Origin: Pseudomonadota bacterium
GTDB taxonomy: Bacteria; Pseudomonadota; Gammaproteobacteria; Arenicellales; Arenicellaceae
Reading direction: 5' to 3'
DNA: 64,000 nt
NCBI GenBank assembly: GCA_039110515.1
Contig: JBCCFY010000010.1
Span: 50,202 to 114,201, forward strand
A program made the position numbers and the translations under genes. Below the pieces are notes generated by a model that ran no database searches, was not told where the DNA came from, and saw only the letters and a list, made by a program, of their open reading frames with translations. Numbering within the stretch: position 1 is the stretch's first letter; the number at the start of each line of letters is the position of its first letter. Below, one piece after another: positions 52,550 to 64,000 of this stretch.

Positions 52550-52728
52550 GAAAAAACATGCCAACGTTCGGTTTGTCCGAAAACCTTAATGTTGAGGTAT
52601 AAATTTGAGTAGGACTAACTGAGGATCATCTTCTCAACTACTGGGTGTGCCCGATTTGTTCCAAAACCAGATACACAAATTTGGTGAAATTCACCTTTGT
52701 GTAACACGATGATTAAAATTGGGGAAAA

Positions 52729-52774
52729 TGGTGGCCAGGGACAGAATCGAACTGCCGACACGGGGATTTTCAGT
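52729..52774 (-). mobile_element. att core: 3' half of tRNA-Phe(GAA)
   Basis: Reverse complement ACTGAAAATCCCCGTGTCGGCAGTTCGATTCTGTCCCTGGCCACCA covers the anticodon loop to CCA; the 5' anticodon-stem strand and D-arm are absent; about 150 bp from an integrase. Confidence 0.92.
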
Positions 52775-52923: not shown

Positions 52924-54213
52924 TTGATGAGAGCCGGTCGGAATAGAGTTAAGTTTGTTGCAGAAAGAGTAAATAAGTTTTGCTGTCCTCCCGACAGAGT
53001 AGATGCTCTACTTTGGGATGCAGACGAGAAATCCTTATGTATCAGAGCTCGTAAGGGAGGATCTAGAGCTTACTATTTCCAGAGCCGATATAACGGCAAG
53101 GTTGTGAAGATTAAGATAGGTAACCTATCTGATAAAGCAGTTACCATTAATTTCGCCAGGAAAAAGGCAAGAAAATATCAATCACAAATCGATGAAGGCT
53201 TTGATCCGAGACAGGTGATAGCTCGGCGTGTCAAGGAAGCGAAAGTCGCGAGGGAAAAATCGAACTTGGCAGCAGTGAAGTTTGGAACTTTGTGGGATGA
53301 GTACGTTGATGCAAATAAAGTTCATTGGAGCGATTCTTATGCGCACGATCATGAAAAGGCTATGCGTGCGGGAGGGCGAAAGCGAAAGCGTTCATCTAGG
53401 TTGACTGTCCCTGGTGTTCTTTTTTCACTCAGAAACATCAAGATATCCGATCTCGATTCTGAACTTGTGATTGAATGGGCTCGTACTGAGGTCGTCCATA
53501 GGCCAACTGTCACAGCTAATGGCTATCGAATTTTCAGAGCTGCTCTCAATTGGGCAGCTGGCACACGTAAGTATAAATCTACGGTCAGGCCGGATGAAAT
53601 TTTCAAGAACCGCGAATTAAGAAGACTAATTCATAAGCCTAAGCCACGCAGAGATGTGTTGCTCCAGCAACACTTACCTACATGGTTTAGATCGGTACGA
53701 GAAAGTTGTGACCCGATAGTAGCTTGTTATCTGCAGGGCCTGTTGATAACTGGCGCGCGCCGAGAAGAAATGGCACAACTAAAGTGGGATGATGTCGACC
53801 TAGAATGGGACTCATTGGAAATCAGAGATAAAGTCGACGGGTCTCGGCAAATTCCGCTTACACCTTATTTTAAATTTTTATTGAGTGAGTTACCTCGCTA
53901 CAATGAGTGGGTATTTTATAGCCATTCGTCGCGCAGCGGGCGCATTGTCGACCCGTATCGAGCCCACAAGAGAGCATTAGACGATACGAATCTTCCTCAC
54001 ATCACGCTACATGGATTACGAAGAAGTTTTGGGACTCTTAGTGAATGGGTTGAGTGCCCTGTTGGGGTCGTGGCCCAGATACAAGGACACAAACCAAGCG
54101 CCATTGCGGAGAAACATTACCGTGTAAGGCCGCTCGACCTGTTGTCAGTTTGGCATCGAAAAATTGAAGAGAAAATCCTTGAGTTTGCGAAGATTGATTT
54201 TCCCTCTACCTGA
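52924..54213 (+). CDS. int: Tyrosine recombinase/integrase with an N-terminal arm-binding domain
   Basis: LLWD...L.IR...Y.FQ.R arm domain; catalytic TGARREE, HGLRR, QGH and KHY motifs. Confidence 0.93.
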   Translation: MMRAGRNRVKFVAERVNKFCCPPDRVDALLWDADEKSLCIRARKGGSRAYYFQSRYNGKVVKIKIGNLSDKAVTINFARKKARKYQSQIDEGFDPRQVIARRVKEAKVAREKSNLAAVKFGTLWDEYVDANKVHWSDSYAHDHEKAMRAGGRKRKRSSRLTVPGVLFSLRNIKISDLDSELVIEWARTEVVHRPTVTANGYRIFRAALNWAAGTRKYKSTVRPDEIFKNRELRRLIHKPKPRRDVLLQQHLPTWFRSVRESCDPIVACYLQGLLITGARREEMAQLKWDDVDLEWDSLEIRDKVDGSRQIPLTPYFKFLLSELPRYNEWVFYSHSSRSGRIVDPYRAHKRALDDTNLPHITLHGLRRSFGTLSEWVECPVGVVAQIQGHKPSAIAEKHYRVRPLDLLSVWHRKIEEKILEFAKIDFPST

Positions 54214-55630: not shown

Positions 55631-56425
55631 GTGGAGCCGCCTAAGCCGAAGTGTAGTCACACTTTGATGTTGATCCCAATTTTTGCTCTAAGCAAGAATC
55701 CAGATTTCGAAGTGTTCTCTTGGAACGATCTCGATTCGAAAGTAGAAGTTACACCTAGTAGTTCTGGCAGAGCTACCATTTGGGACAAAGACATTCTCCT
55801 ATTTTGTATGTCGAAGATCGTCAATGATTTGAATGATGGGGTTGTTCCTAGTCGAGTACTCTCTGTAAAAGGATCTGAGATTCTCCGATTCTGTAGTCGT
55901 GGAAGTGGTGGTCAAGATTATAAAAACCTCAGTGATGCACTGGATAGGTTGAGGGGCACATCAATAAAAACAGACATCAAGTCCCGAGACGTAGAATTTT
56001 CTGACGATTTTACGCTTCTCTCACGCGTGTCAAAGATGAAGATTGTTGGTAATGAAAAATCGACAAGAATACGAATAGAGCTTTCTGAGTGGATTTTCAC
56101 GCAAATGCTCGACCAGCACTATGTACTGACTTATGACCCCGGTTATTTCAAAATGACTAGCGCTATACACCGTCGGCTCTACGAAATCTTTAGAAAGCAC
56201 TGCGGTGAGCAACCAAAATTTCTAATTAGGCTTCGTAAGCTCTTTTTTAAAATTGGTAGTAAGGGATCACTGAATGATTTCAAAAAGGTATTGCGAAAAT
56301 CAGCAGACTACTATGACGAAATAAAAGGATTTCATTCTGGAATGGTGGGTCCTTATGAATACCGGTACCATGAAAGCAGGGAGATTATCGAGGTGAGGTT
56401 TCGTAGATGTCTAAGAGGTGAATAA
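55631..56425 (+). CDS. repA: Plasmid replication initiator RepA (RPA family)
   Basis: PIFALSK, GRATIWDKDILLF, GGQDYKNL.DALDRL.GT.I.T and RRLYEI.RKHCG motifs; followed directly by iterons. Confidence 0.88.
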   Translation: MEPPKPKCSHTLMLIPIFALSKNPDFEVFSWNDLDSKVEVTPSSSGRATIWDKDILLFCMSKIVNDLNDGVVPSRVLSVKGSEILRFCSRGSGGQDYKNLSDALDRLRGTSIKTDIKSRDVEFSDDFTLLSRVSKMKIVGNEKSTRIRIELSEWIFTQMLDQHYVLTYDPGYFKMTSAIHRRLYEIFRKHCGEQPKFLIRLRKLFFKIGSKGSLNDFKKVLRKSADYYDEIKGFHSGMVGPYEYRYHESREIIEVRFRRCLRGE

Positions 56426-56833: not shown

Positions 56834-56866
56834 TTGATTTACAAACTAGGATATTTGGAAATCGTC

Positions 56867-57859
56867 TTGGCTAATACTAGAAACATTTTGGCAATGATCC
56901 GTAGTCGAGCCATTGGTGACGATGAGCAATTCTTCTCAATTGCTCTTCAGGTTGCTGCATCCGAGGCCAGGATGGGGCATCGAAGGATAGCTGAAGATAT
57001 TCGTACTGCTGTTGCTGAAGCTAGATCAACACGTCCTCAAAAAGCCTCTGTACCCGTCTCTTTTGCGAAACCGCGGGGGAATCTTGATGGTTTGTTGGAA
57101 CTTCGCGAAGCAAGATTTAGATTACAAGATGTAATTCTTTCAGAAGGACTAAAGAAGAAAATAGACGATCTCGTAAAACAACAAACCAGGCGAGACTGGT
57201 TAAGAGAGCACGGAAAAACACCAAACAAATCTGCCCTTTTAGTCGGACCACCTGGGTCAGGTAAAACTATGTCGGCGGAAGCCATCGCTAATAGACTGAA
57301 GCTCCCATTTTTTGTAATTAGATTAGAGTCTCTCATTACAAAGTTTATGGGAGAAACGGCGGCGCAGCTGCGGTTGGTCTTTGACGAAGTGGAATCTAAG
57401 AGAGGCGTTTACTTGTTCGATGAATTCGATGCTTTGGGAAGTAGACGCGACTCCAACAACGATGTTGCTGAGATGCGAAGAGTTCTCAATTCATTTCTTC
57501 AGTTTATGGAAACATCAAATACTACAGATAGCCTTGTTATTGCAGCGACAAACTTCCCCAACTTACTCGACAACGCATTGTTACGGCGATTTGATTTAGT
57601 CTTAAAGTTTAGTTACCCGAGTGATGAGCAGATCCGACAAATAATTAAGGACAATTTGCGCCCACTTAAGTATCCAAGGCTTGGTTGGAAGCAAATAATT
57701 AAAGACGCCAAGGATTTGAGCCAGTCAGAAATTGCACGTGCAGCGGAAGATGCAGTGAAGATGGCAATTTTAGATGAAAGGGATACACTTAAGACAAATG
57801 ATATCACTAACAGGCTGATAGAAAGAAAAGAGATGAAAGATGCTTTTACTGGAGTTTGA
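56867..57859 (+). CDS. ietA: AAA+ ATPase, IetA-like
   Basis: TTG start giving MANTRN...DDEQFFSIALQVAASEAR; Walker A GPPGSGKT, Walker B LFDEFD, AATN and ALLRRFD motifs. Confidence 0.88.
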   Translation: MANTRNILAMIRSRAIGDDEQFFSIALQVAASEARMGHRRIAEDIRTAVAEARSTRPQKASVPVSFAKPRGNLDGLLELREARFRLQDVILSEGLKKKIDDLVKQQTRRDWLREHGKTPNKSALLVGPPGSGKTMSAEAIANRLKLPFFVIRLESLITKFMGETAAQLRLVFDEVESKRGVYLFDEFDALGSRRDSNNDVAEMRRVLNSFLQFMETSNTTDSLVIAATNFPNLLDNALLRRFDLVLKFSYPSDEQIRQIIKDNLRPLKYPRLGWKQIIKDAKDLSQSEIARAAEDAVKMAILDERDTLKTNDITNRLIERKEMKDAFTGV

Positions 57860-57874
57860 AAATAGGGAATTATT

Positions 57875-60358
57875 ATGGCGGAGTTTGAACTGCCTCACCT
57901 CAATATAAGTAACAGAGTAGTTCCGAGAGCTTATCAGGCCCCGCGCCAGAATTTTGGGGGAAACGAGACAGTAAGAATTCCTGCAGAACATGGAAGTCTA
58001 TTGCGTTCTCAGCTTGAAAGAGCGTTTGCAGAAAGTGATCAACTACGGCCGACCCAAGTAGATTTACCAGAGCAGCAGGGAAGTTTTTTAGAAGTTCAAG
58101 TTGCCAGAGGGAAACGAGGCGAGGATCTGGAAAGGAAAAAGATAGGGATACACCCTGGTGCCAGTAAACTTGATGAAAACGATATCTGTCACATTGTCCT
58201 TTATGTTCCCACAGAATCTCGAGAGGCGTTTTATTCGATTCTCGATGATTATCGTACTCACACTCCGACCGAAGATCACCCAAATCCTCCGAGAAAAGGT
58301 CTTGTAGAATCTATCGATGAGATTAGGAGGGCTCAACTGGAATCATTTTGGACTGATGATCCGGAAGCTTTACCCACCGATGCAGATCTAGAAATCTGGT
58401 GGGAGCTTTGGTGTTTTCCAAGCGCTGTAGATGAAGTAATTACGTTAGCTAGACAGCTTGGTGCCTTTGTCTCAGATTCGGAGTCATGGATGAGATTTCC
58501 AGAGTCCACCGTGGTGCAGGTGCTAGCAAAACGCCCTACTATAGAGTTGCTGCTATATGCTCCCTTTGGGCTTCTCGAATTAAGAAGAGCTAGTATTTCC
58601 CCATCTCTTTTTATGGATGGTAGTGGTCAAGATCAACGCGATTGGTCAGTTTCGTTAGCAGAACGAACTATCTGGCCCGATTCTACGGTACCAGCTGTTT
58701 GTCTTCTAGACACCGGCGTAAATAGAGGACACGTACTTATTGAGCCGGCATTGAGTGCTGGTGATCAACTTACTATTAAGCAAGAGTGGAATGTTGAAGA
58801 TGATCACGGCCATGGCACTCAGATGGCGGGTTTAGCACTACACGGAGACCTGACGACAAAACTATCGGATGAATATACACACCAGATGATTCATCGACTG
58901 GAGTCAGTCAAACTCCTCCCTCCGAATGGGTTTGAAGCGACAGATCCTCGTAGTTATGGTTGGGTTACTCAGGCTGCAGTTTCTCTAGGTGAGATAAATG
59001 AGGTTAGTCGCCAGCGAGTATTTTGTTGCGCAATAACGAACGAGGATGTCTCTGGATCAAGGCCGAGCAGTTGGAGTGCAGCAATTGATCAATGTGCTGC
59101 CGGTGTGATGCCAGCTGACGAAGATAATGCCCCGCGTAGACTTTTTATTCTTTCTTGCGGCAACATAGCTCCCGAGGTTGATCCAAGAATCCTAAGAGAT
59201 CAGAGTGAGTATCCTGTAGAGGATCCCTCTCAAGCCTGGAACGCCTTGACTGTAGGAGGGTTCACTAATAAATCGCACATTGATGAGGAAGGATATGAAG
59301 CTTGGAGACCATATGCGCAATCTGGGGATGTGAGCCCTTACTCAAGAACTTCTCAATTATGGCCTGCTGGGAAATCTCCATTTAAACCAGATATTGTAAT
59401 GGAGGCGGGAAACCGAGGCATTTCTCCAACGGAGACTGAACTACTGGGGTTTGATTCCTTGAGTCTGCTGACTACTAACAGAGATGTTGATCGGCAACCG
59501 TTAACGACATTTTGGGCGACAAGCGCTGCAACCGCTTTGGCTTCGCGTTTGGCTGCCAGAATCCTCGCAGATAATCCCGACTATTGGCCAGAAACAGTAA
59601 GAGCGCTAATAGTGCATAGCGCTCAATGGACTCCAACAATGTTGGATCAGCTTAATGAATCGCATATAAAAAAGGATCGTCATGCTTTGCTTCGCAGATT
59701 TGGTTATGGTGTTCCCTCATATGAGCGTGCGCACGCCTCTTCTCAGAATAACCTAGCTCTTGTGGCACAGAATGAAATTCAACCGTACAAAAACGATGGT
59801 GGTAGAAAATTTGGAGACTGTCATATTTATGACCTCCCGTGGCCGAGGGATATACTAGAACAACTTGGAGATTCTGAGGTCACTCTCAAAGTTACACTGT
59901 CTTATTTCATTGAACCAAATCCCGGGTACAGTGGTTCTGTAAATCCTCAGAGATATCAGTCCTATGGACTAAGATTTGATTTAAAGAGGGGAAACGAGAC
60001 CAGGGAAGATTTTATTGAGCGAGTCAACGCCCTCGAACGCGATGACCCATTGGCCGCTCATCAACAAGGCGTTGCTGATGACGGTTGGACATTCGGTCAG
60101 AGGAGTGTTGCTGCAGGCTCGCTGCACTGTGATGAGTGGTCCGGAACTGCGGTGAAACTAGCCAACCGTGATCTATTGTGTATTAAGCCCGTTGGGGGAT
60201 GGTGGAGGGATCGAGCCTCATTGGATATTTGTCAGAAGATGGCGCGTTACGCTTTAGTGTTAACGATATCCACACCCAGAGAAGACATAAACCTTTACAC
60301 AGAAATTTCAAACATTGTAGATGCAATGATTGAACTTCCGGTATCTATAGAGACCTAG
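57875..60358 (+). CDS. ietS: S8 subtilase, IetS-like
   Basis: VCLLDTGVN (D), HGHGTQMAG (H), ATSAA (S), WPETVRALIVHSA and GYGVP motifs; 15 nt after the ATPase. Confidence 0.9.
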   Translation: MAEFELPHLNISNRVVPRAYQAPRQNFGGNETVRIPAEHGSLLRSQLERAFAESDQLRPTQVDLPEQQGSFLEVQVARGKRGEDLERKKIGIHPGASKLDENDICHIVLYVPTESREAFYSILDDYRTHTPTEDHPNPPRKGLVESIDEIRRAQLESFWTDDPEALPTDADLEIWWELWCFPSAVDEVITLARQLGAFVSDSESWMRFPESTVVQVLAKRPTIELLLYAPFGLLELRRASISPSLFMDGSGQDQRDWSVSLAERTIWPDSTVPAVCLLDTGVNRGHVLIEPALSAGDQLTIKQEWNVEDDHGHGTQMAGLALHGDLTTKLSDEYTHQMIHRLESVKLLPPNGFEATDPRSYGWVTQAAVSLGEINEVSRQRVFCCAITNEDVSGSRPSSWSAAIDQCAAGVMPADEDNAPRRLFILSCGNIAPEVDPRILRDQSEYPVEDPSQAWNALTVGGFTNKSHIDEEGYEAWRPYAQSGDVSPYSRTSQLWPAGKSPFKPDIVMEAGNRGISPTETELLGFDSLSLLTTNRDVDRQPLTTFWATSAATALASRLAARILADNPDYWPETVRALIVHSAQWTPTMLDQLNESHIKKDRHALLRRFGYGVPSYERAHASSQNNLALVAQNEIQPYKNDGGRKFGDCHIYDLPWPRDILEQLGDSEVTLKVTLSYFIEPNPGYSGSVNPQRYQSYGLRFDLKRGNETREDFIERVNALERDDPLAAHQQGVADDGWTFGQRSVAAGSLHCDEWSGTAVKLANRDLLCIKPVGGWWRDRASLDICQKMARYALVLTISTPREDINLYTEISNIVDAMIELPVSIET

Positions 60359-60990: not shown

Positions 60991-61455
60991 ATGGATTTCA
61001 ATGCCATCGAGGGACTTATGCTTCAACGGGCATCACGTATCAAACCATTAACCAAAATGACGAATCGGCTCATAAAAGCACAGCAACGGAGCAGGATTAT
61101 TAGAATTATGGTGCTAGTAGCGATCTTCTTTGGATTGACCGCATGTGGCGGTGGTGGTAGTTCAAGTGGAGGAGGGCAACAAGAGTCCCTATCTGTTAAT
61201 GGGAACACTGCTGAGAACGCAAGGGCTGATCAATGTCTGACATTCGAAAATACACCAGCGGGTGATCGCCGTTATACAAATATTTGTTCGTTTACAATTC
61301 GTACCGCCTCGTTTAACTCCGATGGTAGTGTGGGCCGAGGAATAGCCCAACCAGGGACAACATTCTTAGTAACACAAGGACAAGCAATTCCCGTGGCCTG
61401 CGAAGAACCTTTCAATCCTCAGCAGAGTTCAAGCGGCGTCATATGCAGAATTTAG
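60991..61455 (+). CDS. Cys-containing lipoprotein with a long N-region (frame open from ATG 60853)
   Basis: SD TAAGGAGGTGA before ATG 60991; h-region followed by LTAC-GGGGSSSGGG; four further Cys. Confidence 0.7.
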   Translation: MDFNAIEGLMLQRASRIKPLTKMTNRLIKAQQRSRIIRIMVLVAIFFGLTACGGGGSSSGGGQQESLSVNGNTAENARADQCLTFENTPAGDRRYTNICSFTIRTASFNSDGSVGRGIAQPGTTFLVTQGQAIPVACEEPFNPQQSSSGVICRI

Positions 61456-63143
61456 TTGATATCTAGCGTACAAGGGCTGGTCGCCAGATTGTCGCACCGA
61501 ATTCGATTCCAACAGAGCACAGTGTCACCTGTGATTGAATTCTTGCACTGCCATGTCTGTATCCGATCCACGTTACTGCTAGATGTGAAAGCAGGCTGAT
61601 CATTGTCCCCAGAGTTGCACAAATTTGGATCCGAAAGTGAAAAAGGCGTAACGGAAGATGGATTGCCAACAAATCTTTCTTGGCCGTGATTGGATCCACA
61701 TGAAGGGGGCGTGCTGTCACCATCACCCGAACAGTTTTTGGTGCCGATAGATCCGCGCCGATTGCCGTTGCTAGCTAAACCTTCACATCGGGTTTGAGTA
61801 AATGACACCCCTGAACAGACAGTGCTAGGATCTGGAGCCCATGGTTCTACACATGTTGTTGAACAATTTCTGGTTCCTGGTCTCTCTTCAGTAGTCCCGC
61901 AGTTGTCACGCCAAGTTACTGTGTCTGTTGTACATACCGAGGCTGGGTTTAAGTCTGGTACCATCCCGGTTGACAATACTTGGTAGTTAACTACTCGACT
62001 TAGGTTTTTCCCTAGACATTCATCGCAAAGAGGAAAATTCGAACCCTTTGTGTCAAAAGAACAACCACAAGTTTGTAAGATCGTGTGATTACCACAAGAG
62101 GTCTGTCTGGGTTCACTATCTGCGCAGTCTACTGCCGTGACTGCGTAGTCTGTATCGAGGCAAAAATGGACCTTGTCGCTCGATTTGGGATTGTTCAGTA
62201 AGGAGTTTTTAGCTTTCGCCTTAAGGAAATCAACAAAGTCGTCTCTGCCTGCAAGTTTTTTTGTGAAAACAGGAATCTGGGCATTGCTATCAAGATTGTT
62301 TGCAGTAACTACAACAGGGTGATACTCCACTGAGCCTTCGCGCGTATCAACCAAACGGCGGTGTTCAATTTTAGCTGACGCCGAGGTAGGTTCTCCATGT
62401 GCGGCTACAATCTCAGGTGAGCTTAATCTAGCTATGTAGTCATCATGGGGAAAGTCTCCAACGTTGTTGGCAATCAGATCAGTTCGATTCTCAATGCAGG
62501 TCTCTATGTTTCCAGTACCAGTGGCATCTCTTACCGCGCCACAGAGATTAGTTTGTTGGAACTGGATACCTGAACAAACAGTATTTTCAGCCGGGGCAAA
62601 CAAACCGGCCTCACAGCATTTGGTTCCAGTTGCCTGTCTAGTACCTCTGCATTGGTTAGTTTGAGTAAAAGATTCTCCAGAACAAACAGTCCCTGGATCG
62701 GGCAACCATTGATCTATACAGCAATTTTTTGTGCCAGTTTTTTGTCGCGTGTACCCGCAGTTAGATGTCTGAGTAAACGTCTCTCCAGCGCAGATCGTGT
62801 TGGGTGCTGGGTTCCATGTCCAACCTTCATTCTTACTGTAGACATCGCGGCATCTCGTCGTGTTTAGTAGCGTTCCGCATTGCGTAACTTTATGGTTCTT
62901 ACACACTTTGACTGTATTGAGGTTCTCGTTGGTCCAAGTAACAGCACCACACATCAACGGATGATCCTTTTGGCCTAACAGTTGTCCGCGGTATTTGCCG
63001 CAATTGTCATATCTGGGAATGGAGGTGCCAACACAGTAACGGGTGGCAATGCTTGGTAGCCAACCATGATTCGGGCCACATAAATTGGCCTCTGCAATTG
63101 GAGTGAGAACGGAAAAAATTAGGATCAGAGTGATGATCTTCAT
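61452..63143 (-). CDS. Secreted Cys-rich repeat protein (38 Cys)
   Basis: The minus strand reads MKIITLILIFSVLTPIAEA from ATG 63143; five WxPxPxTVCSGxxFTQTxxCGxTRxxxGTKxC-like repeats. Confidence 0.85.
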   Translation of the reverse strand: MKIITLILIFSVLTPIAEANLCGPNHGWLPSIATRYCVGTSIPRYDNCGKYRGQLLGQKDHPLMCGAVTWTNENLNTVKVCKNHKVTQCGTLLNTTRCRDVYSKNEGWTWNPAPNTICAGETFTQTSNCGYTRQKTGTKNCCIDQWLPDPGTVCSGESFTQTNQCRGTRQATGTKCCEAGLFAPAENTVCSGIQFQQTNLCGAVRDATGTGNIETCIENRTDLIANNVGDFPHDDYIARLSSPEIVAAHGEPTSASAKIEHRRLVDTREGSVEYHPVVVTANNLDSNAQIPVFTKKLAGRDDFVDFLKAKAKNSLLNNPKSSDKVHFCLDTDYAVTAVDCADSEPRQTSCGNHTILQTCGCSFDTKGSNFPLCDECLGKNLSRVVNYQVLSTGMVPDLNPASVCTTDTVTWRDNCGTTEERPGTRNCSTTCVEPWAPDPSTVCSGVSFTQTRCEGLASNGNRRGSIGTKNCSGDGDSTPPSCGSNHGQERFVGNPSSVTPFSLSDPNLCNSGDNDQPAFTSSSNVDRIQTWQCKNSITGDTVLCWNRIRCDNLATSPCTLDIN

Positions 63144-63236: not shown

Positions 63237-63569
63237 TTAATCTGTACGTCTTTTGAAGCTCTCACATATGAATACGGCGTCAATGATTTGGTGCATTTCC
63301 AGGCAATATGCCTGAACTGTCGACTTTCCGGTCGTCGAGAGTGGACTGGAGAGTCCGCATCTCAAACGAGCTTTGCTGCAATCGACGCATAGAAACTTCG
63401 TTTCGTCGGATAGCATGGACAGTATTTGTCTGTACTGACTTGCGTTGATCCCAGAATCGGAGGAGGTCAATTGATCTAGCGTAGCATCGAAGTGAGTTTG
63501 TAAGATTCTGAATTCGGAGCGTAAGCTGTCGAGTGATTCGCCCAATGATTCCAATACGTGATCTTCCAT
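63237..63569 (-). CDS. Small helical protein overlapping the relaxase C-terminus (MbeB/MobB-like position)
   Basis: SD GAGG before ATG 63569; 110 aa in a different frame from the relaxase. Confidence 0.6.
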   Translation of the reverse strand: MEDHVLESLGESLDSLRSEFRILQTHFDATLDQLTSSDSGINASQYRQILSMLSDETKFLCVDCSKARLRCGLSSPLSTTGKSTVQAYCLEMHQIIDAVFICESFKRRTD

Positions 63570-64000
63570 TTAAAGCCTCTGTTGATGTGGTTAGTGGTTT
63601 ATGTATCTTGATGGGTGATGCAGGCTCGCTATTCACTGAGCAGGCATATCGCTTCTCATTGAGAATTTTTTTTCGTTCAAATGCGACTTTCAGTTGTGCT
63701 GCTGCAGTCTTCTCCCTATCAATCCTTTGGCTTGCAAATATCAAAGATTGTTTAGCTATCTCGCTCTCCGTTAGCTGGCCATTCCAAGATTCCAAGTAAA
63801 CGGCCCCCGTCAACCTAATGTTACGTTTGCTGGTATTCGTTCTTATGCTAATCGAGGACTTTGTTGTTCGGGCTACATTTATGCCTAGCCGCTCTAGCTC
63901 TTTAACAATATCGTCACGGGTTTCAATTTCTCCAGCAGCTATGCAAGCCTCTACGTGTGCATGTAGCTTTTGCCTAAGTCTCTCTACATCTTGGGGTAAA
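63280..64000 (-). CDS. MobA/MbeA-type relaxase, 5'-truncated by the window edge
   Basis: Frame open from 63999: LPQDVERLRQKLHAHVEACIAAGEIETRDDIVKELERLGINVARTTKSSISIR...NIRLTGAVY, characteristic of the post-catalytic region of ColE1-type relaxases. Confidence 0.75.
   Translation of the reverse strand, partial: LPQDVERLRQKLHAHVEACIAAGEIETRDDIVKELERLGINVARTTKSSISIRTNTSKRNIRLTGAVYLESWNGQLTESEIAKQSLIFASQRIDREKTAAAQLKVAFERKKILNEKRYACSVNSEPASPIKIHKPLTTSTEALNGRSRIGIIGRITRQLTLRIQNLTNSLRCYARSIDLLRFWDQRKSVQTNTVHAIRRNEVSMRRLQQSSFEMRTLQSTLDDRKVDSSGILPGNAPNH

What the first reader, a model, noticed from the sequence alone, without database searches (positions are those of the whole stretch)
61452..63143. 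Disulfide-rich secreted repeat protein carried as cargo downstream of the mob genes
Seen: 563 aa with 38 Cys; five ~35-aa repeats such as WNPAPNTICAGETFTQTSNCGYTRQKTGTKNC (three tandem, then a Cys-free ~115-aa charged insert, then two more), and a terminal CGSNHG...PNLC...WQC...C module. From memory, the last module resembles repeats in surface and pilin-associated proteins of Patescibacteria, and such Cys density is more typical of eukaryotic extracellular proteins. It is co-oriented with mobA/mobB. Inference: an adhesin or ligand mimic that promotes cell contact for an element with no mating apparatus visible in this window.
Basis: partly seen in the sequence, partly recalled or inferred. 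Interest (0 to 1): 0.62.

Follow-up and report, generated by a model that had tools for sequence, protein, structure and literature searches.

The report
Cysteine-rich secreted protein with partner lipoprotein
A rare, undescribed secreted protein with 38 cysteines is always encoded tail-to-tail with a small lipoprotein that changes together with its swappable C-terminal end; this two-gene cassette sits on small plasmids, genomic islands and pilus operons and probably mediates specific killing or recognition of neighbouring cells.

Summary
Window 61452-63143 (-) encodes a 563-aa protein with a signal peptide and 38 Cys. It has five significant ~35-aa repeats (three, then a 111-aa Cys-free stretch, then two) and a Cys-rich C-terminal module. 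It lies just downstream of a MobC/MbeA-like relaxase pair, on a 13.6-kb element integrated at tRNA-Phe.

The protein and its repeat match no Pfam, NCBIfam or PDB entry. A link to thrombospondin type 1 (TSP1) repeats is only indirect.

A small lipoprotein gene (60992/61057-61455, +) converges on the gene, and their stop codons overlap. The same pairing is present in all 14 homologous loci I could inspect.

The proteins are mosaics. The last ~100 residues and the lipoprotein change together (Mantel rho 0.68, p 2e-4) and independently of the rest of the protein.

Seven of the 14 loci are on mobile elements, including two tiny circular plasmids and two type IV pilus-like operons. The rest are chromosomal or on contigs too short to tell. 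Lipoprotein genes without a large partner also occur.

Best reading (about 0.4): an effector plus a cognate neutralising lipoprotein, like a bacteriocin and its immunity protein. The function has not been tested.

The parts
61452..63143 (-). Gene for the 563-aa secreted cysteine-rich modular protein (P0001)
   Evidence: about a dozen full-length homologue clusters among 1.84e9 representative proteins
63087..63143 (-). Signal peptide (aa 1-19, MKIITLILIFSVLTPIAEA)
   Evidence: Read from the sequence. All homologues have an equivalent hydrophobic N-terminus followed by a conserved CGP motif.
62823..63086 (-). Conserved N-terminal Cys module (aa 20-107), made of two degenerate repeat copies; the best-conserved part of the family
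   Evidence: The same module is fused to TSP3, discoidin and Excalibur domains in P0012, P0079 and P0082.
62496..62822 (-). Three tandem ~35-aa repeats, W.P...TVC.G..FTQT..CG.TR...GTK.C (aa 108-216)
   Evidence: HMM domain E 2.7e-19, 3.7e-18 and 4.4e-15. AF2 gives a beta-hairpin per repeat, pLDDT 73-89.
61968..62495 (-). Central domain 'type A' (aa 217-392): a Cys-free beta-rich part (GDFPHD..IARL..PVFT..FLNAKA) followed by the Cys motif CG.HT..Q.C.C.FDT.G...PLCDEC
   Evidence: No Pfam, PDB or Foldseek match. An alternative 'type B' domain sits at the same position in P0011, P0073, P0074 and P0081.
61731..61967 (-). Two further repeats (aa 393-471)
   Evidence: HMM domain E 1.6e-7 and 6.1e-11
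61452..61730 (-). Gly/Pro-rich linker plus variable C-terminal module, class i (aa 472-563, 7 Cys), and the stop codon
   Evidence: Related only to the C-termini of P0073 and P0011, although the rest of P0001 is closest to class-ii proteins. AF2 pLDDT is below 35 here.
60992..61455 (+). Convergent partner lipoprotein, class S. Lipobox GLTAC (Cys codon at 61144-61146), then a GGGGSSSGGG tether and a ~90-aa beta-sandwich with 4 Cys. The start is ATG 60992 (preceded by AAGGAGG) or ATG 61057. The stop codon overlaps that of the Cys-rich gene (TTAG at 61452-61455).
   Evidence: AF2 pLDDT is above 90 for residues 45-132 of the 132-aa form. A convergent lipoprotein is present in 14 of 14 homologous loci.
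63280..64000 (-). C-terminal part of the MbeA-like relaxase gene, which continues past the window end. MobC lies upstream of it, outside the window.
   Evidence: NCBIfam relax_MbeA_E1 E 4e-17. Pfam Relaxase and MobC match the full genes in L008. The proteins are 37-39% identical to the relaxase and MobC of plasmid L007, which carries the same cassette in the same order.
52725..52774 (.). Left att site: an exact 50-bp copy of the 3' end of tRNA-Phe. The other copy, inside the tRNA gene, lies 13,625 bp to the right (contig C10 116551-116600), beyond the window end.
52924..54213 (+). Tyrosine integrase of the element
   Evidence: Pfam Phage_integrase plus Arm-DNA-bind_3
55631..56425 (+). Replication initiator (RPA family)
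   Evidence: Pfam PF10134, E 3.8e-58
56834..60358 (+). IetA/IetS (AAA ATPase plus S8 peptidase) defence pair, the other cargo of the element
   Evidence: PADLOC IetA E 6e-71, IetS E 6e-35; NCBIfam IteA/IteS

Best explanation
The gene and the convergent lipoprotein gene form one two-gene cassette that is selfish cargo of a 13.6-kb integrative mobilisable element.

Shown by the sequence and comparisons:
- The large protein is Sec-exported and built for an oxidising compartment (38 Cys).
- It is modular: a conserved N-terminal module, hairpin repeats, a central domain, a Gly/Pro-rich linker and an exchangeable ~90-aa C-terminal module.
- The C-terminal module and the lipoprotein are always adjacent and are swapped together between lineages.

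Inferred:
- The lipoprotein, tethered to a membrane by a lipid and a Gly/Ser linker, binds that C-terminal module specifically.
- The most likely mechanism is an effector/immunity pair of the modular-bacteriocin or polymorphic-toxin kind. The conserved N-terminal parts would bind and enter the envelope of neighbouring cells. The disulfide-rich C-terminal module would act in the periplasm or outer membrane. The producer would be protected because its cognate lipoprotein captures that module on its way out.
- The cassette would thereby favour cells that carry the plasmid or island.
For: 1. The pairing is invariant. A convergent lipoprotein gene lies directly downstream in 14 of 14 loci, in unrelated surroundings. 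The stop codons often overlap (L003 and L009).
2. There are two lipoprotein classes and they follow the C-terminal class. Class i/iii goes with S in 5 loci and class ii goes with L in 9 loci, whichever central-domain type (A or B) is present.
3. The proteins are mosaics. The N-part of P0001 is closest to class-ii proteins (360-407 bits), but its last 100 aa match only P0073 and P0011.
4. The C-terminal similarity matrix tracks the mature-lipoprotein matrix (rho 0.68, Mantel p 2e-4), whereas the N-part does not (rho 0.15, p 0.11). Nearest neighbours agree in 11 of 12 loci.
5. S-class lipoprotein genes also occur without the large gene: a tandem pair in L020, one on contig C47 of the window's own genome, and one on contig C81 of G014.
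6. Two tiny circular plasmids (L007, 5.46 kb; L014, 4.73 kb) carry essentially only rep/mob genes plus this pair, the layout of colicin plasmids. The relaxase here is of the ColE1 MbeA type.
7. Modular bacteriocins have a C-terminal toxin module, an immunity gene downstream on the same or the opposite strand, and orphan immunity genes (PMC5358913).
8. The lipoprotein folds confidently as a small disulfide-bonded beta-sandwich. One of its best, though non-significant, PDB matches is the tight-binding inhibitor tendamistat.
Against: - No toxin fold or catalytic motif is recognisable. The invariant residues are almost all Cys, Gly, Pro or Trp.
- The C-terminal module is small and could not be modelled.
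- Among the family members retrieved, the scaffold is fused to adhesion-type domains (TSP3, discoidin, PKD, DUF11, LRR, type IV pilin) and not to a recognised toxin domain; the one enzyme-family hit was Exo_endo_phos in P0034.
- In two loci the gene is the last, co-oriented gene of a type IV pilus-like operon, which suits an adhesin better.
- Only 2-3 C-terminal classes were seen, far less diversity than in classical polymorphic toxins.
- Physical adjacency alone could explain why the C-terminus and the lipoprotein are inherited together.
- No release or lysis gene was found, and the route across the outer membrane is unknown.
Confidence: 0.4

Rival explanations
1. Contact adhesin with a cognate lipoprotein; this is the first reader's idea, extended. 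The disulfide-stapled repeat stalk is displayed on the cell or at a type IV pilus tip. The variable C-terminal module is the partner-binding tip, as the variable C-terminus of PilV is on IncI thin pili. The cognate lipoprotein either docks the protein on the producer or acts as an exclusion factor that masks the tip towards cells already carrying the element, by analogy with TraN and TraT. On a mobilisable element this would raise the chance of being co-transferred by a helper.
For: - In L016 and L006 the gene is the last, co-oriented gene of operons encoding a PilB/GspE ATPase, a PilC-like platform, pilin-like proteins and a VirB1/SLT transglycosylase. In L016 the gap to the preceding gene is 13 bp.
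- L005 lies beside Dot/Icm-type T4SS genes.
- Five or six of the 191 retrieved family members carry a type IV pilin N-terminus (P0037, P0106, P0131, P0154, P0177).
- Partner domains elsewhere are adhesive or Ca-binding.
- The order mobC-relaxase-gene is conserved between the window and plasmid L007.
- TraN is a plasmid outer-membrane protein with isotypes that set recipient specificity, and TraT is a specificity-bearing exclusion lipoprotein (PMC11733297).
- The host has T2SS/T4P ATPases that could export or display the protein.
Against: - A convergent orientation with overlapping stops in every locus is unusual for two subunits of one complex.
- Lipoprotein genes without the large gene lie among housekeeping genes.
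- At least three families of loci are plainly chromosomal, with no transfer genes nearby.
- P0001 has a Sec signal peptide, not a prepilin leader.
- There is no Pfam TraN or PilV match, and no VirB4 or VirD4 helper in this genome.
- The variable part is the lipoprotein-linked end, so an extra assumption (exclusion) is needed.
Confidence: 0.3
2. Eukaryote-like (TSP1-like) surface or secreted protein used to bind a host or an extracellular matrix ('ligand mimic'). The lipoprotein would be a simple surface anchor, and presence on the mobile element would be incidental.
For: - The repeat is homologous (hhalign 96.9%, E 1.4e-10) to an 88-aa repeat whose core passes Pfam's TSP1_2 cut-off.
- Properdin, a TSP1 protein, is the third Foldseek hit.
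- Relatives carry TSP3 and discoidin domains.
- Several homologues come from marine MAGs.
Against: - The window's repeat has no direct Pfam or PDB match.
- The properdin hit is not significant (E 0.36, probability 0.23).
- Each repeat has 2-4 Cys and one Trp, not the 6 Cys and W..W/R.R layers of TSP1.
- Nothing links the host genus to a eukaryotic host.
- An anchor role does not explain the exchangeable C-terminus/lipoprotein classes or the lipoprotein genes that occur alone.
Confidence: 0.1
3. Envelope-level exclusion or defence module of the element. The secreted protein and lipoprotein would modify or block a surface structure (pilus, receptor) used by phages or competing plasmids, fitting its position next to IetAS.
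For: The cassette shares the island with the IetAS defence pair. L012 carries it next to PIN and DUF2971 genes, and L001 next to HipAB. Mobile elements often carry surface-exclusion lipoproteins (established knowledge; TraT in PMC11733297).
Against: No PADLOC match. There is no precedent for a 563-aa secreted disulfide-rich defence protein. The association with defence genes is seen in only a few loci.
Confidence: 0.07

Closest known systems
Modular bacteriocins with linked immunity genes (colicins on ColE1-type plasmids, S- and M-type pyocins)
   Same: Multi-domain secreted protein with the specificity or effector module at the C-terminus. A small cognate gene lies directly downstream, and in some families on the opposite strand. 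Orphan copies of the small gene occur. Carried by small Mob(MbeA-type) plasmids (PMC5358913).
   Different: No sequence or fold relation to any colicin or pyocin domain. It has a Sec signal peptide and 38 Cys, whereas colicins have neither. The partner is a lipoprotein of an unknown family. No lysis gene is present. Toxicity has not been shown.
Polymorphic toxin systems (CdiA-CT/CdiI, Rhs-CT/RhsI)
   Same: Conserved N-terminal body, sharp switch to alternative C-terminal modules after a linker, cognate downstream gene, and recombinational exchange of the C-terminus and partner as a unit.
   Different: Only 2-3 C-terminal classes. The C-terminal modules are small, Cys-rich and without a known toxin fold. 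The partner gene is convergent rather than co-directional. No dedicated secretion partner (CdiB, T6SS) is present.
TraN / TraT of F-like plasmids (mating-pair stabilisation and surface exclusion)
   Same: A Cys-rich exported protein of about 600 aa and a specificity-bearing lipoprotein, both encoded by a transfer-related element (PMC11733297).
   Different: No Pfam TraN or TraT match. TraT is an alpha-helical-barrel decamer, not a ~90-aa beta-sandwich. TraN and TraT are not known to bind each other. There is no T4SS here.
PilV adhesin of IncI1 thin pili, and secreted type IVb pilus partners (TcpF, CofJ)
   Same: The last gene of a type IV pilus operon on a transfer element in L006 and L016. 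Variable C-terminal end. Some family members are true pilin fusions.
   Different: P0001 has a Sec leader and no pilin helix. The window has no pilus operon. No sequence similarity was detected. The PilV, TcpF and CofJ properties are from my own knowledge and were not checked here.
Thrombospondin type 1 repeat (Pfam TSP1_2 PF23260 / TSP_1)
   Same: A short disulfide-bonded extracellular repeat with a W..P/W strand followed by a hairpin carrying Q, R and Cys. Longer relatives of the repeat pass the TSP1_2 cut-off on the homologous segment.
   Different: The window's compact 35-aa repeat gives no direct hit to any TSP1 model or PDB chain. It has one Trp and 2-4 Cys instead of the W..W..W/R.R.R layers and 6 Cys.

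Membership tests
Thrombospondin type 1 repeat (TSP1) | Match to a curated TSP1 profile (Pfam TSP_1 / TSP1_2 and relatives) | tested here: not met
   P0001 and 50 isolated repeat units give no Pfam hit even at E<=10. Only the 88-aa long-form relatives P0042 and P0085 pass TSP1_2 (40 and 61 bits against a cut-off of 27). They are linked to the window's repeat by hhalign (96.9%, E 1.4e-10).
Thrombospondin type 1 repeat (TSP1) | Three-stranded fold with stacked Trp/Arg layers and three disulfides (6 Cys) per repeat | tested here: inconclusive
   The AF2 model gives one extended W.P segment plus a beta-hairpin per repeat. There is one Trp, one conserved Arg and 2-4 Cys per repeat. Foldseek finds properdin at rank 3 but E 0.36, probability 0.23.
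Polymorphic toxin / modular bacteriocin with immunity protein | Conserved N-terminal body with alternative, unrelated C-terminal modules | tested here: met
   Bit-score matrices of the N-part and of the last 100 aa disagree. Classes i, ii and iii are combined with central types A and B.
Polymorphic toxin / modular bacteriocin with immunity protein | Adjacent small gene that co-varies with the C-terminal module | tested here: met
   14 of 14 loci. The lipoprotein class follows the C-terminal class. Mantel rho 0.68, p 2e-4, against 0.15 for the N-part.
Polymorphic toxin / modular bacteriocin with immunity protein | C-terminal module is a toxin (recognisable toxin fold or demonstrated toxicity), neutralised by the partner | not testable with these tools
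   No Pfam, NCBIfam, PADLOC or PDB hit. The C-terminal module is modelled at pLDDT below 35. No complex prediction tool was available. Toxicity needs an experiment.
Polymorphic toxin / modular bacteriocin with immunity protein | Orphan immunity genes in genomes that lack the toxin | tested here: met
   S-class lipoprotein genes without a large partner: L020 (a tandem pair beside the ATP synthase operon), G000 C47:13475-13831 and G014 C81. This is compatible with the family but not specific to it.
TraN (F-type mating-pair stabilisation protein) | Match to the TraN family profile and location in a T4SS transfer operon | tested here: not met
   No Pfam hit of any kind for P0001. No VirB4 or VirD4 was found in the genome. 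Only the Cys richness and size are alike.
Type IV pilin / PilV-like minor pilin | N-terminal prepilin leader with G|(F/M)TLxE and a hydrophobic helix | tested here: not met
   P0001 starts with a Sec-type signal peptide. The motif is present only in distant repeat-bearing relatives.
Bacterial lipoprotein (the partner gene) | Signal peptide ending in a lipobox [LVI][ASTVI][GAS]C | tested here: met
   FFGLTAC followed by GGGGSSSGGG, conserved in all partners. Read from the sequence only; lipidation was not shown.
Integrative mobilisable element (the carrier) | att direct repeats at a tRNA gene, an integrase, a relaxase with accessory protein, and no own mating-pore genes | tested here: met
   An exact 50-bp repeat of the tRNA-Phe 3' end, 13,625 bp apart. 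Integrase and RPA Rep. Relaxase and MobC. No T4SS gene lies between the repeats.

The most novel reading that the evidence does not exclude
The cassette is a portable ligand-receptor pair for partner choice. A disulfide-stapled, TSP1-like stalk protein presents an exchangeable tip. The cognate lipoprotein, a relative of chromosomal lipoproteins found in the same genus, is its receptor or decoy. Plasmids, islands and pilus-bearing conjugative elements would then carry their own self/non-self recognition and exclusion code for cell contact. This would be a new class of mating or kin-recognition determinant, independent of the T4SS.
Probability: 0.2. Interest if true: 0.8.

Novelty: new variant of a known kind. 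Interest (0 to 1): 0.58.

Why it matters
Neither protein belongs to a described family, and the full architecture is very rare: about a dozen clusters among 1.84 billion representative proteins. The comparative signal is nevertheless unusually clean. The pairing is invariant, the C-terminus and the lipoprotein change together, and the proteins are mosaics.

If the pair is an effector/immunity system, it adds a Sec-dependent, disulfide-rich class of bacteriocin-like weapons that act in the envelope and are carried by marine plasmids and islands. If it is an adhesin/exclusion pair, it would show that mobilisable elements without a mating apparatus can still encode their own cell-contact specificity.

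Either way it gives a first functional handle on a widespread prokaryotic Cys-rich repeat (437 clusters) that is also fused to pilins and lectin-like domains. It also offers a tractable two-protein interaction to test.

Tried and rejected
- Pfam, NCBIfam, PADLOC and PDB-sequence searches of the protein, of 50 isolated repeats and of close and distant homologues found no family for the window's protein.
- Foldseek of the full AF2 model against PDB and BFVD gave nothing significant, only elongated beta proteins and tail fibres with TM below 0.15.
- Foldseek of the lipoprotein model had a best E of 0.03 (cupin HppE, tendamistat), which is not significant.
- A word-based search with the central domain alone found only the query itself.
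- tblastn against PLSDB plasmids found no match.
- A pattern scan for promoters and terminators around the pair found nothing above the shuffled expectation.
- I considered that the large protein is itself a lipoprotein and rejected it. The residues before the first Cys are not a consistent lipobox across homologues.
- I considered that the 'charged insert' is a disordered linker and rejected it. It is conserved and confidently folded.
- I considered that the 13,635-bp public contig carrying P0001 is the excised circle and rejected it. Its length equals the island interior (13,575 bp) plus 30 bp at each end, which is what a k=31 assembler yields at a 50-bp repeat.
- A first related-loci run failed for lack of conserved columns and was repeated with a narrower alignment.
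Full report
**Observation.** The minus-strand ORF 61452-63143 translates to 563 aa with 38 Cys. A TTG 45 nt upstream is possible, but all homologues begin at the MK... position. The N-terminus (MKIITLILIFSVLTPIAEA|NLCGP) reads as a Sec signal peptide. I built a repeat HMM from 46 repeat units of other proteins, leaving out the window's own copies. It finds five significant copies at residues 108-142, 145-177, 182-212, 400-427 and 435-471 (domain E 2.7e-19 to 1.6e-7). It also finds two weak degenerate copies inside the N-terminal module. The best of 500 shuffles scored 9.3 bits. The Cys-free stretch is C216-C328. The one correction is that the 'insert' is a conserved, confidently folded domain (pLDDT 75-88 in the AF2 model), not a charged linker.

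**Carrier element.** The gene lies 136 bp downstream of, and co-oriented with, an MbeA-like relaxase (NCBIfam E 4e-17) and a MobC/NikA-like protein. I laid out the whole contig. A tRNA-Phe gene lies 2.35 kb beyond the window end. An exact 50-bp copy of its 3' end sits at window 52725-52774, 13,625 bp from the copy inside the tRNA gene. Between the repeats, in order, lie:
- a tyrosine integrase;
- a 369-aa unknown protein and a small 96-aa ORF;
- an RPA-family replication initiator;
- an IetA/IetS defence pair (PADLOC E 6e-71 and 6e-35);
- the lipoprotein and the Cys-rich gene;
- the relaxase, MobC and two unknown ORFs.

No mating-pore gene is present in the element, and the genome (96% complete) gave no VirB4 or VirD4 match. 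'Cargo of a mobilisable element' is correct. The genome belongs to the same genus as a MAG titled 'uncultured Arenicella sp.'. Only 4 of 25 genomes of that genus have a homologue, at 45-48% identity, so the gene is accessory.

**What the protein is.** Pfam, NCBIfam, PADLOC and PDB sequences give nothing. A profile search of 1.84 billion representative proteins finds only 437 relatives (51 at E<=1e-30). The full architecture is present in about a dozen clusters. The alignment shows a fixed plan:
- a signal peptide;
- a strongly conserved Cys module (CGP.N.G.LP...YC..V.RY.YCG...G.L.G.KDHPLMC);
- a variable number of 35-aa repeats (W.P...TVC.G..FTQT..CG.TR...GTK.C);
- a central domain;
- one to three more repeats;
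- a Pro/Gly-rich linker;
- a ~90-aa C-terminal module.

AF2 models each repeat as an extended W.P segment plus a beta-hairpin. Foldseek of the whole model finds nothing significant in PDB or BFVD.

The repeat alone occurs in many other architectures: with TSP3 repeats, discoidin, Excalibur, PKD, DUF11, LRR and cadherin-like domains. Five or six of the 191 retrieved proteins have a type IV pilin N-terminus.

**TSP1 question.** The compact repeat gives no Pfam or PDB hit, even unit by unit at E<=10. It is, however, homologous (hhalign 96.9%, E 1.4e-10) to the first 24 columns of an 88-aa long-form repeat in P0042 and P0085. That same segment (Y.C..W.P...T...G..FTQ.R.C.Q.Q.R.R) passes Pfam's TSP1_2 cut-off (40 and 61 bits against 27). 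In 'type B' relatives the motif after the central domain reads WS.W....CG.H.Y...R.C.....PC..CPNG, which also resembles TSP1. The link is plausible but transitive. The Cys and Trp counts do not fit canonical TSP1, so I do not file the repeat as TSP1.

**The missed partner.** A small gene converges on the 3' end of the Cys-rich gene. It runs from 60992 (ATG after AAGGAGG) or 61057 to 61455, on the plus strand. The two stop codons overlap (TTAG at 61452-61455). It encodes a lipoprotein: lipobox GLTAC, a GGGGSSSGGG tether and a ~90-aa domain with four Cys. An AF2 model built on 23 homologues is confident (pLDDT above 90 for residues 45-132) and shows an eight-strand beta-sandwich. Its best PDB matches are not significant: cupin HppE and tendamistat at E 0.03, with TM 0.55 over 67 columns for tendamistat.

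A convergent lipoprotein gene with the same lipobox and tether follows the homologue in every locus I could inspect, 14 of 14: the window, L001/L017, L003, L005, L006, L007, L009, L010, L011, L012, L014, L016, L018 (partial) and L025. In L006 one gene intervenes. Repeat-only proteins from 75 further metagenome loci have no such neighbour.

**Co-variation and mosaicism.**
- The lipoproteins fall into two unrelated classes. Class S is short, with 4 Cys (C..N.C.F.VNVR.F..AC.AP..P...C). Class L is longer, with 2 Cys (Y.G.Y...Y.G.I.V...TG.PC...). BLAST shows no cross-hits between them.
- The C-terminal modules fall into class i (window, P0011, P0073), class iii (P0007, P0009, P0075) and class ii (all the others).
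- Class i/iii always goes with S (5 loci) and class ii always with L (9 loci). This holds whether the central domain is type A or type B.
- The body of P0001 is closest to class-ii proteins (360-407 bits). Its last 100 residues match only P0073 and P0011, whose bodies are closest to the class-ii proteins P0074 and P0081.
- Across 12 loci, the similarity matrix of the last 100 aa correlates with that of the mature lipoprotein (Spearman 0.68, Mantel p 2e-4). The body does not (0.15, p 0.11). Nearest neighbours of C-terminus and lipoprotein agree in 11 of 12 loci.

The C-terminal module and the lipoprotein therefore move as one unit. Because they abut in the DNA, linkage alone could cause this. 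What argues for function is that the adjacency itself is invariant across plasmids, islands, operons and chromosomes.

**Contexts.**
- Mobile (7 of 14):
  - the window's element;
  - L012, with AlpA, an RPA Rep 30% identical to the window's, and a PIN gene;
  - L007, a circular 5.46-kb plasmid with a 30-bp terminal overlap, whose MobC and relaxase are 37-39% identical to the window's and stand in the same order;
  - L014, a circular 4.73-kb plasmid;
  - L005, beside Dot/Icm-type T4SS genes;
  - L006 and L016, where the gene closes a type IV pilus-like operon with a PilB/GspE ATPase, a PilC-like platform, pilin-like proteins and a VirB1-like transglycosylase; L016 also has an integrase nearby.
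- Chromosomal: L001/L017 (an Arenicella chromosome), L003 (between SAM synthetase, an aminotransferase and the L31 gene) and L018/L019.
- Undetermined (short contigs): L009, L010, L011 and L025.
- S-class lipoprotein genes also occur without the large gene. There is a tandem pair beside the ATP synthase operon (L020), one next to a thiolase gene on contig C47 of the window's own genome, and one in G014. About 30 S-class clusters scored E<1e-5, against six class-i/iii large-protein clusters.

**Interpretation.** Four things are shown: a Sec-exported, disulfide-rich modular protein; an obligatory neighbour lipoprotein; joint exchange of the C-terminus and the lipoprotein; and frequent carriage on small mobile elements. 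That the two proteins bind is inferred.

Two mechanisms fit.
- (A) Effector plus immunity. This reading has all the comparative hallmarks of modular bacteriocins and polymorphic toxins: a C-terminal module that defines specificity, a downstream cognate gene that may be on the opposite strand, and orphan immunity genes (PMC5358913). It also has the colicin-plasmid layout. A periplasmic or outer-membrane lipoprotein is the expected kind of immunity for a disulfide-rich effector that acts outside the cytoplasm.
- (B) Adhesin plus dock or exclusion factor. This is favoured by the pilus-operon and pilin-fusion members, by the adhesion-type partner domains, and by the lack of any recognisable toxin fold or catalytic residue. 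The TraN/TraT precedent is described in PMC11733297.

I put A at about 0.4 and B at about 0.3. A TSP1-like host-binding protein gets 0.1, an envelope defence or exclusion module 0.07, and the remainder is unknown.

**Novelty and verdict.** The family, its central domain, both lipoprotein classes and the cassette are undescribed. The logic (a modular exported protein with a swappable end and a cognate partner) is known, so I rate it a new variant of a known kind.

Noticed in passing
window 56834-60358 (+): An IetA (AAA ATPase) / IetS (S8 peptidase) defence pair is the other cargo of the same 13.6-kb element (PADLOC E 6e-71 and 6e-35).
   Followed up: partly
window 52725-52774, and contig C10 116551-116600 (2.35 kb beyond the window end): An exact 50-bp direct repeat of the tRNA-Phe 3' end bounds the element (13,625 bp between copies). 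The only public contig carrying P0001 is 13,635 bp long. That equals the island interior plus 30 bp at each end, which is an assembly break at the repeat and not evidence of an excised circle.
   Followed up: partly
own genome, contig C47:13475-13831 (-): A second S-class lipoprotein (118 aa, same lipobox/tether and ACRAPS.P motif) lies beside a thiolase gene with no Cys-rich partner. A similar one is in a genome of the same genus (G014 C81; L105 1480-1791).
   Followed up: partly
L007 (5,489 bp) and L014 (4,804 bp): Both contigs have terminal direct overlaps (30 and 78 bp), so they are circular plasmids of about 5.46 and 4.73 kb. Their only cargo beyond rep/mob genes is the Cys-rich gene plus lipoprotein pair.
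   Followed up: yes
L006 9401-9862 (-) and L016 8074-8628 (-): A further small secreted protein (ending ...GEW....F.V..C) is conserved next to the cassette in the two pilus-operon loci (BLAST E 3e-12). Its function is unknown.
   Followed up: no
proteins P0012, P0016, P0082 (relatives with TSP3 repeats): They share a conserved extreme C-terminal tail, D.DG.PD..DAYP.Q..T.CS[AD]. This might be a sorting or anchoring signal.
   Followed up: no
window 63237-63569 (-): A 110-aa ORF overlaps the relaxase C-terminus in another frame, as mbeB/mbeD do in ColE1. No family match was found, so the 'mobB' label is unverified.
   Followed up: partly
window 60992 versus 61057: The lipoprotein gene has an upstream in-frame ATG preceded by AAGGAGG, which gives an unusually long N-region. 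Similarly long N-regions occur in the L001 and L010 partners.
   Followed up: no
own genome, contigs C17, C8, C4, C26: Three GspE/PilB-class and three PilT-class ATPases are present, so T2SS and type IV pilus machinery that could export or display the protein exists in the host.
   Followed up: no
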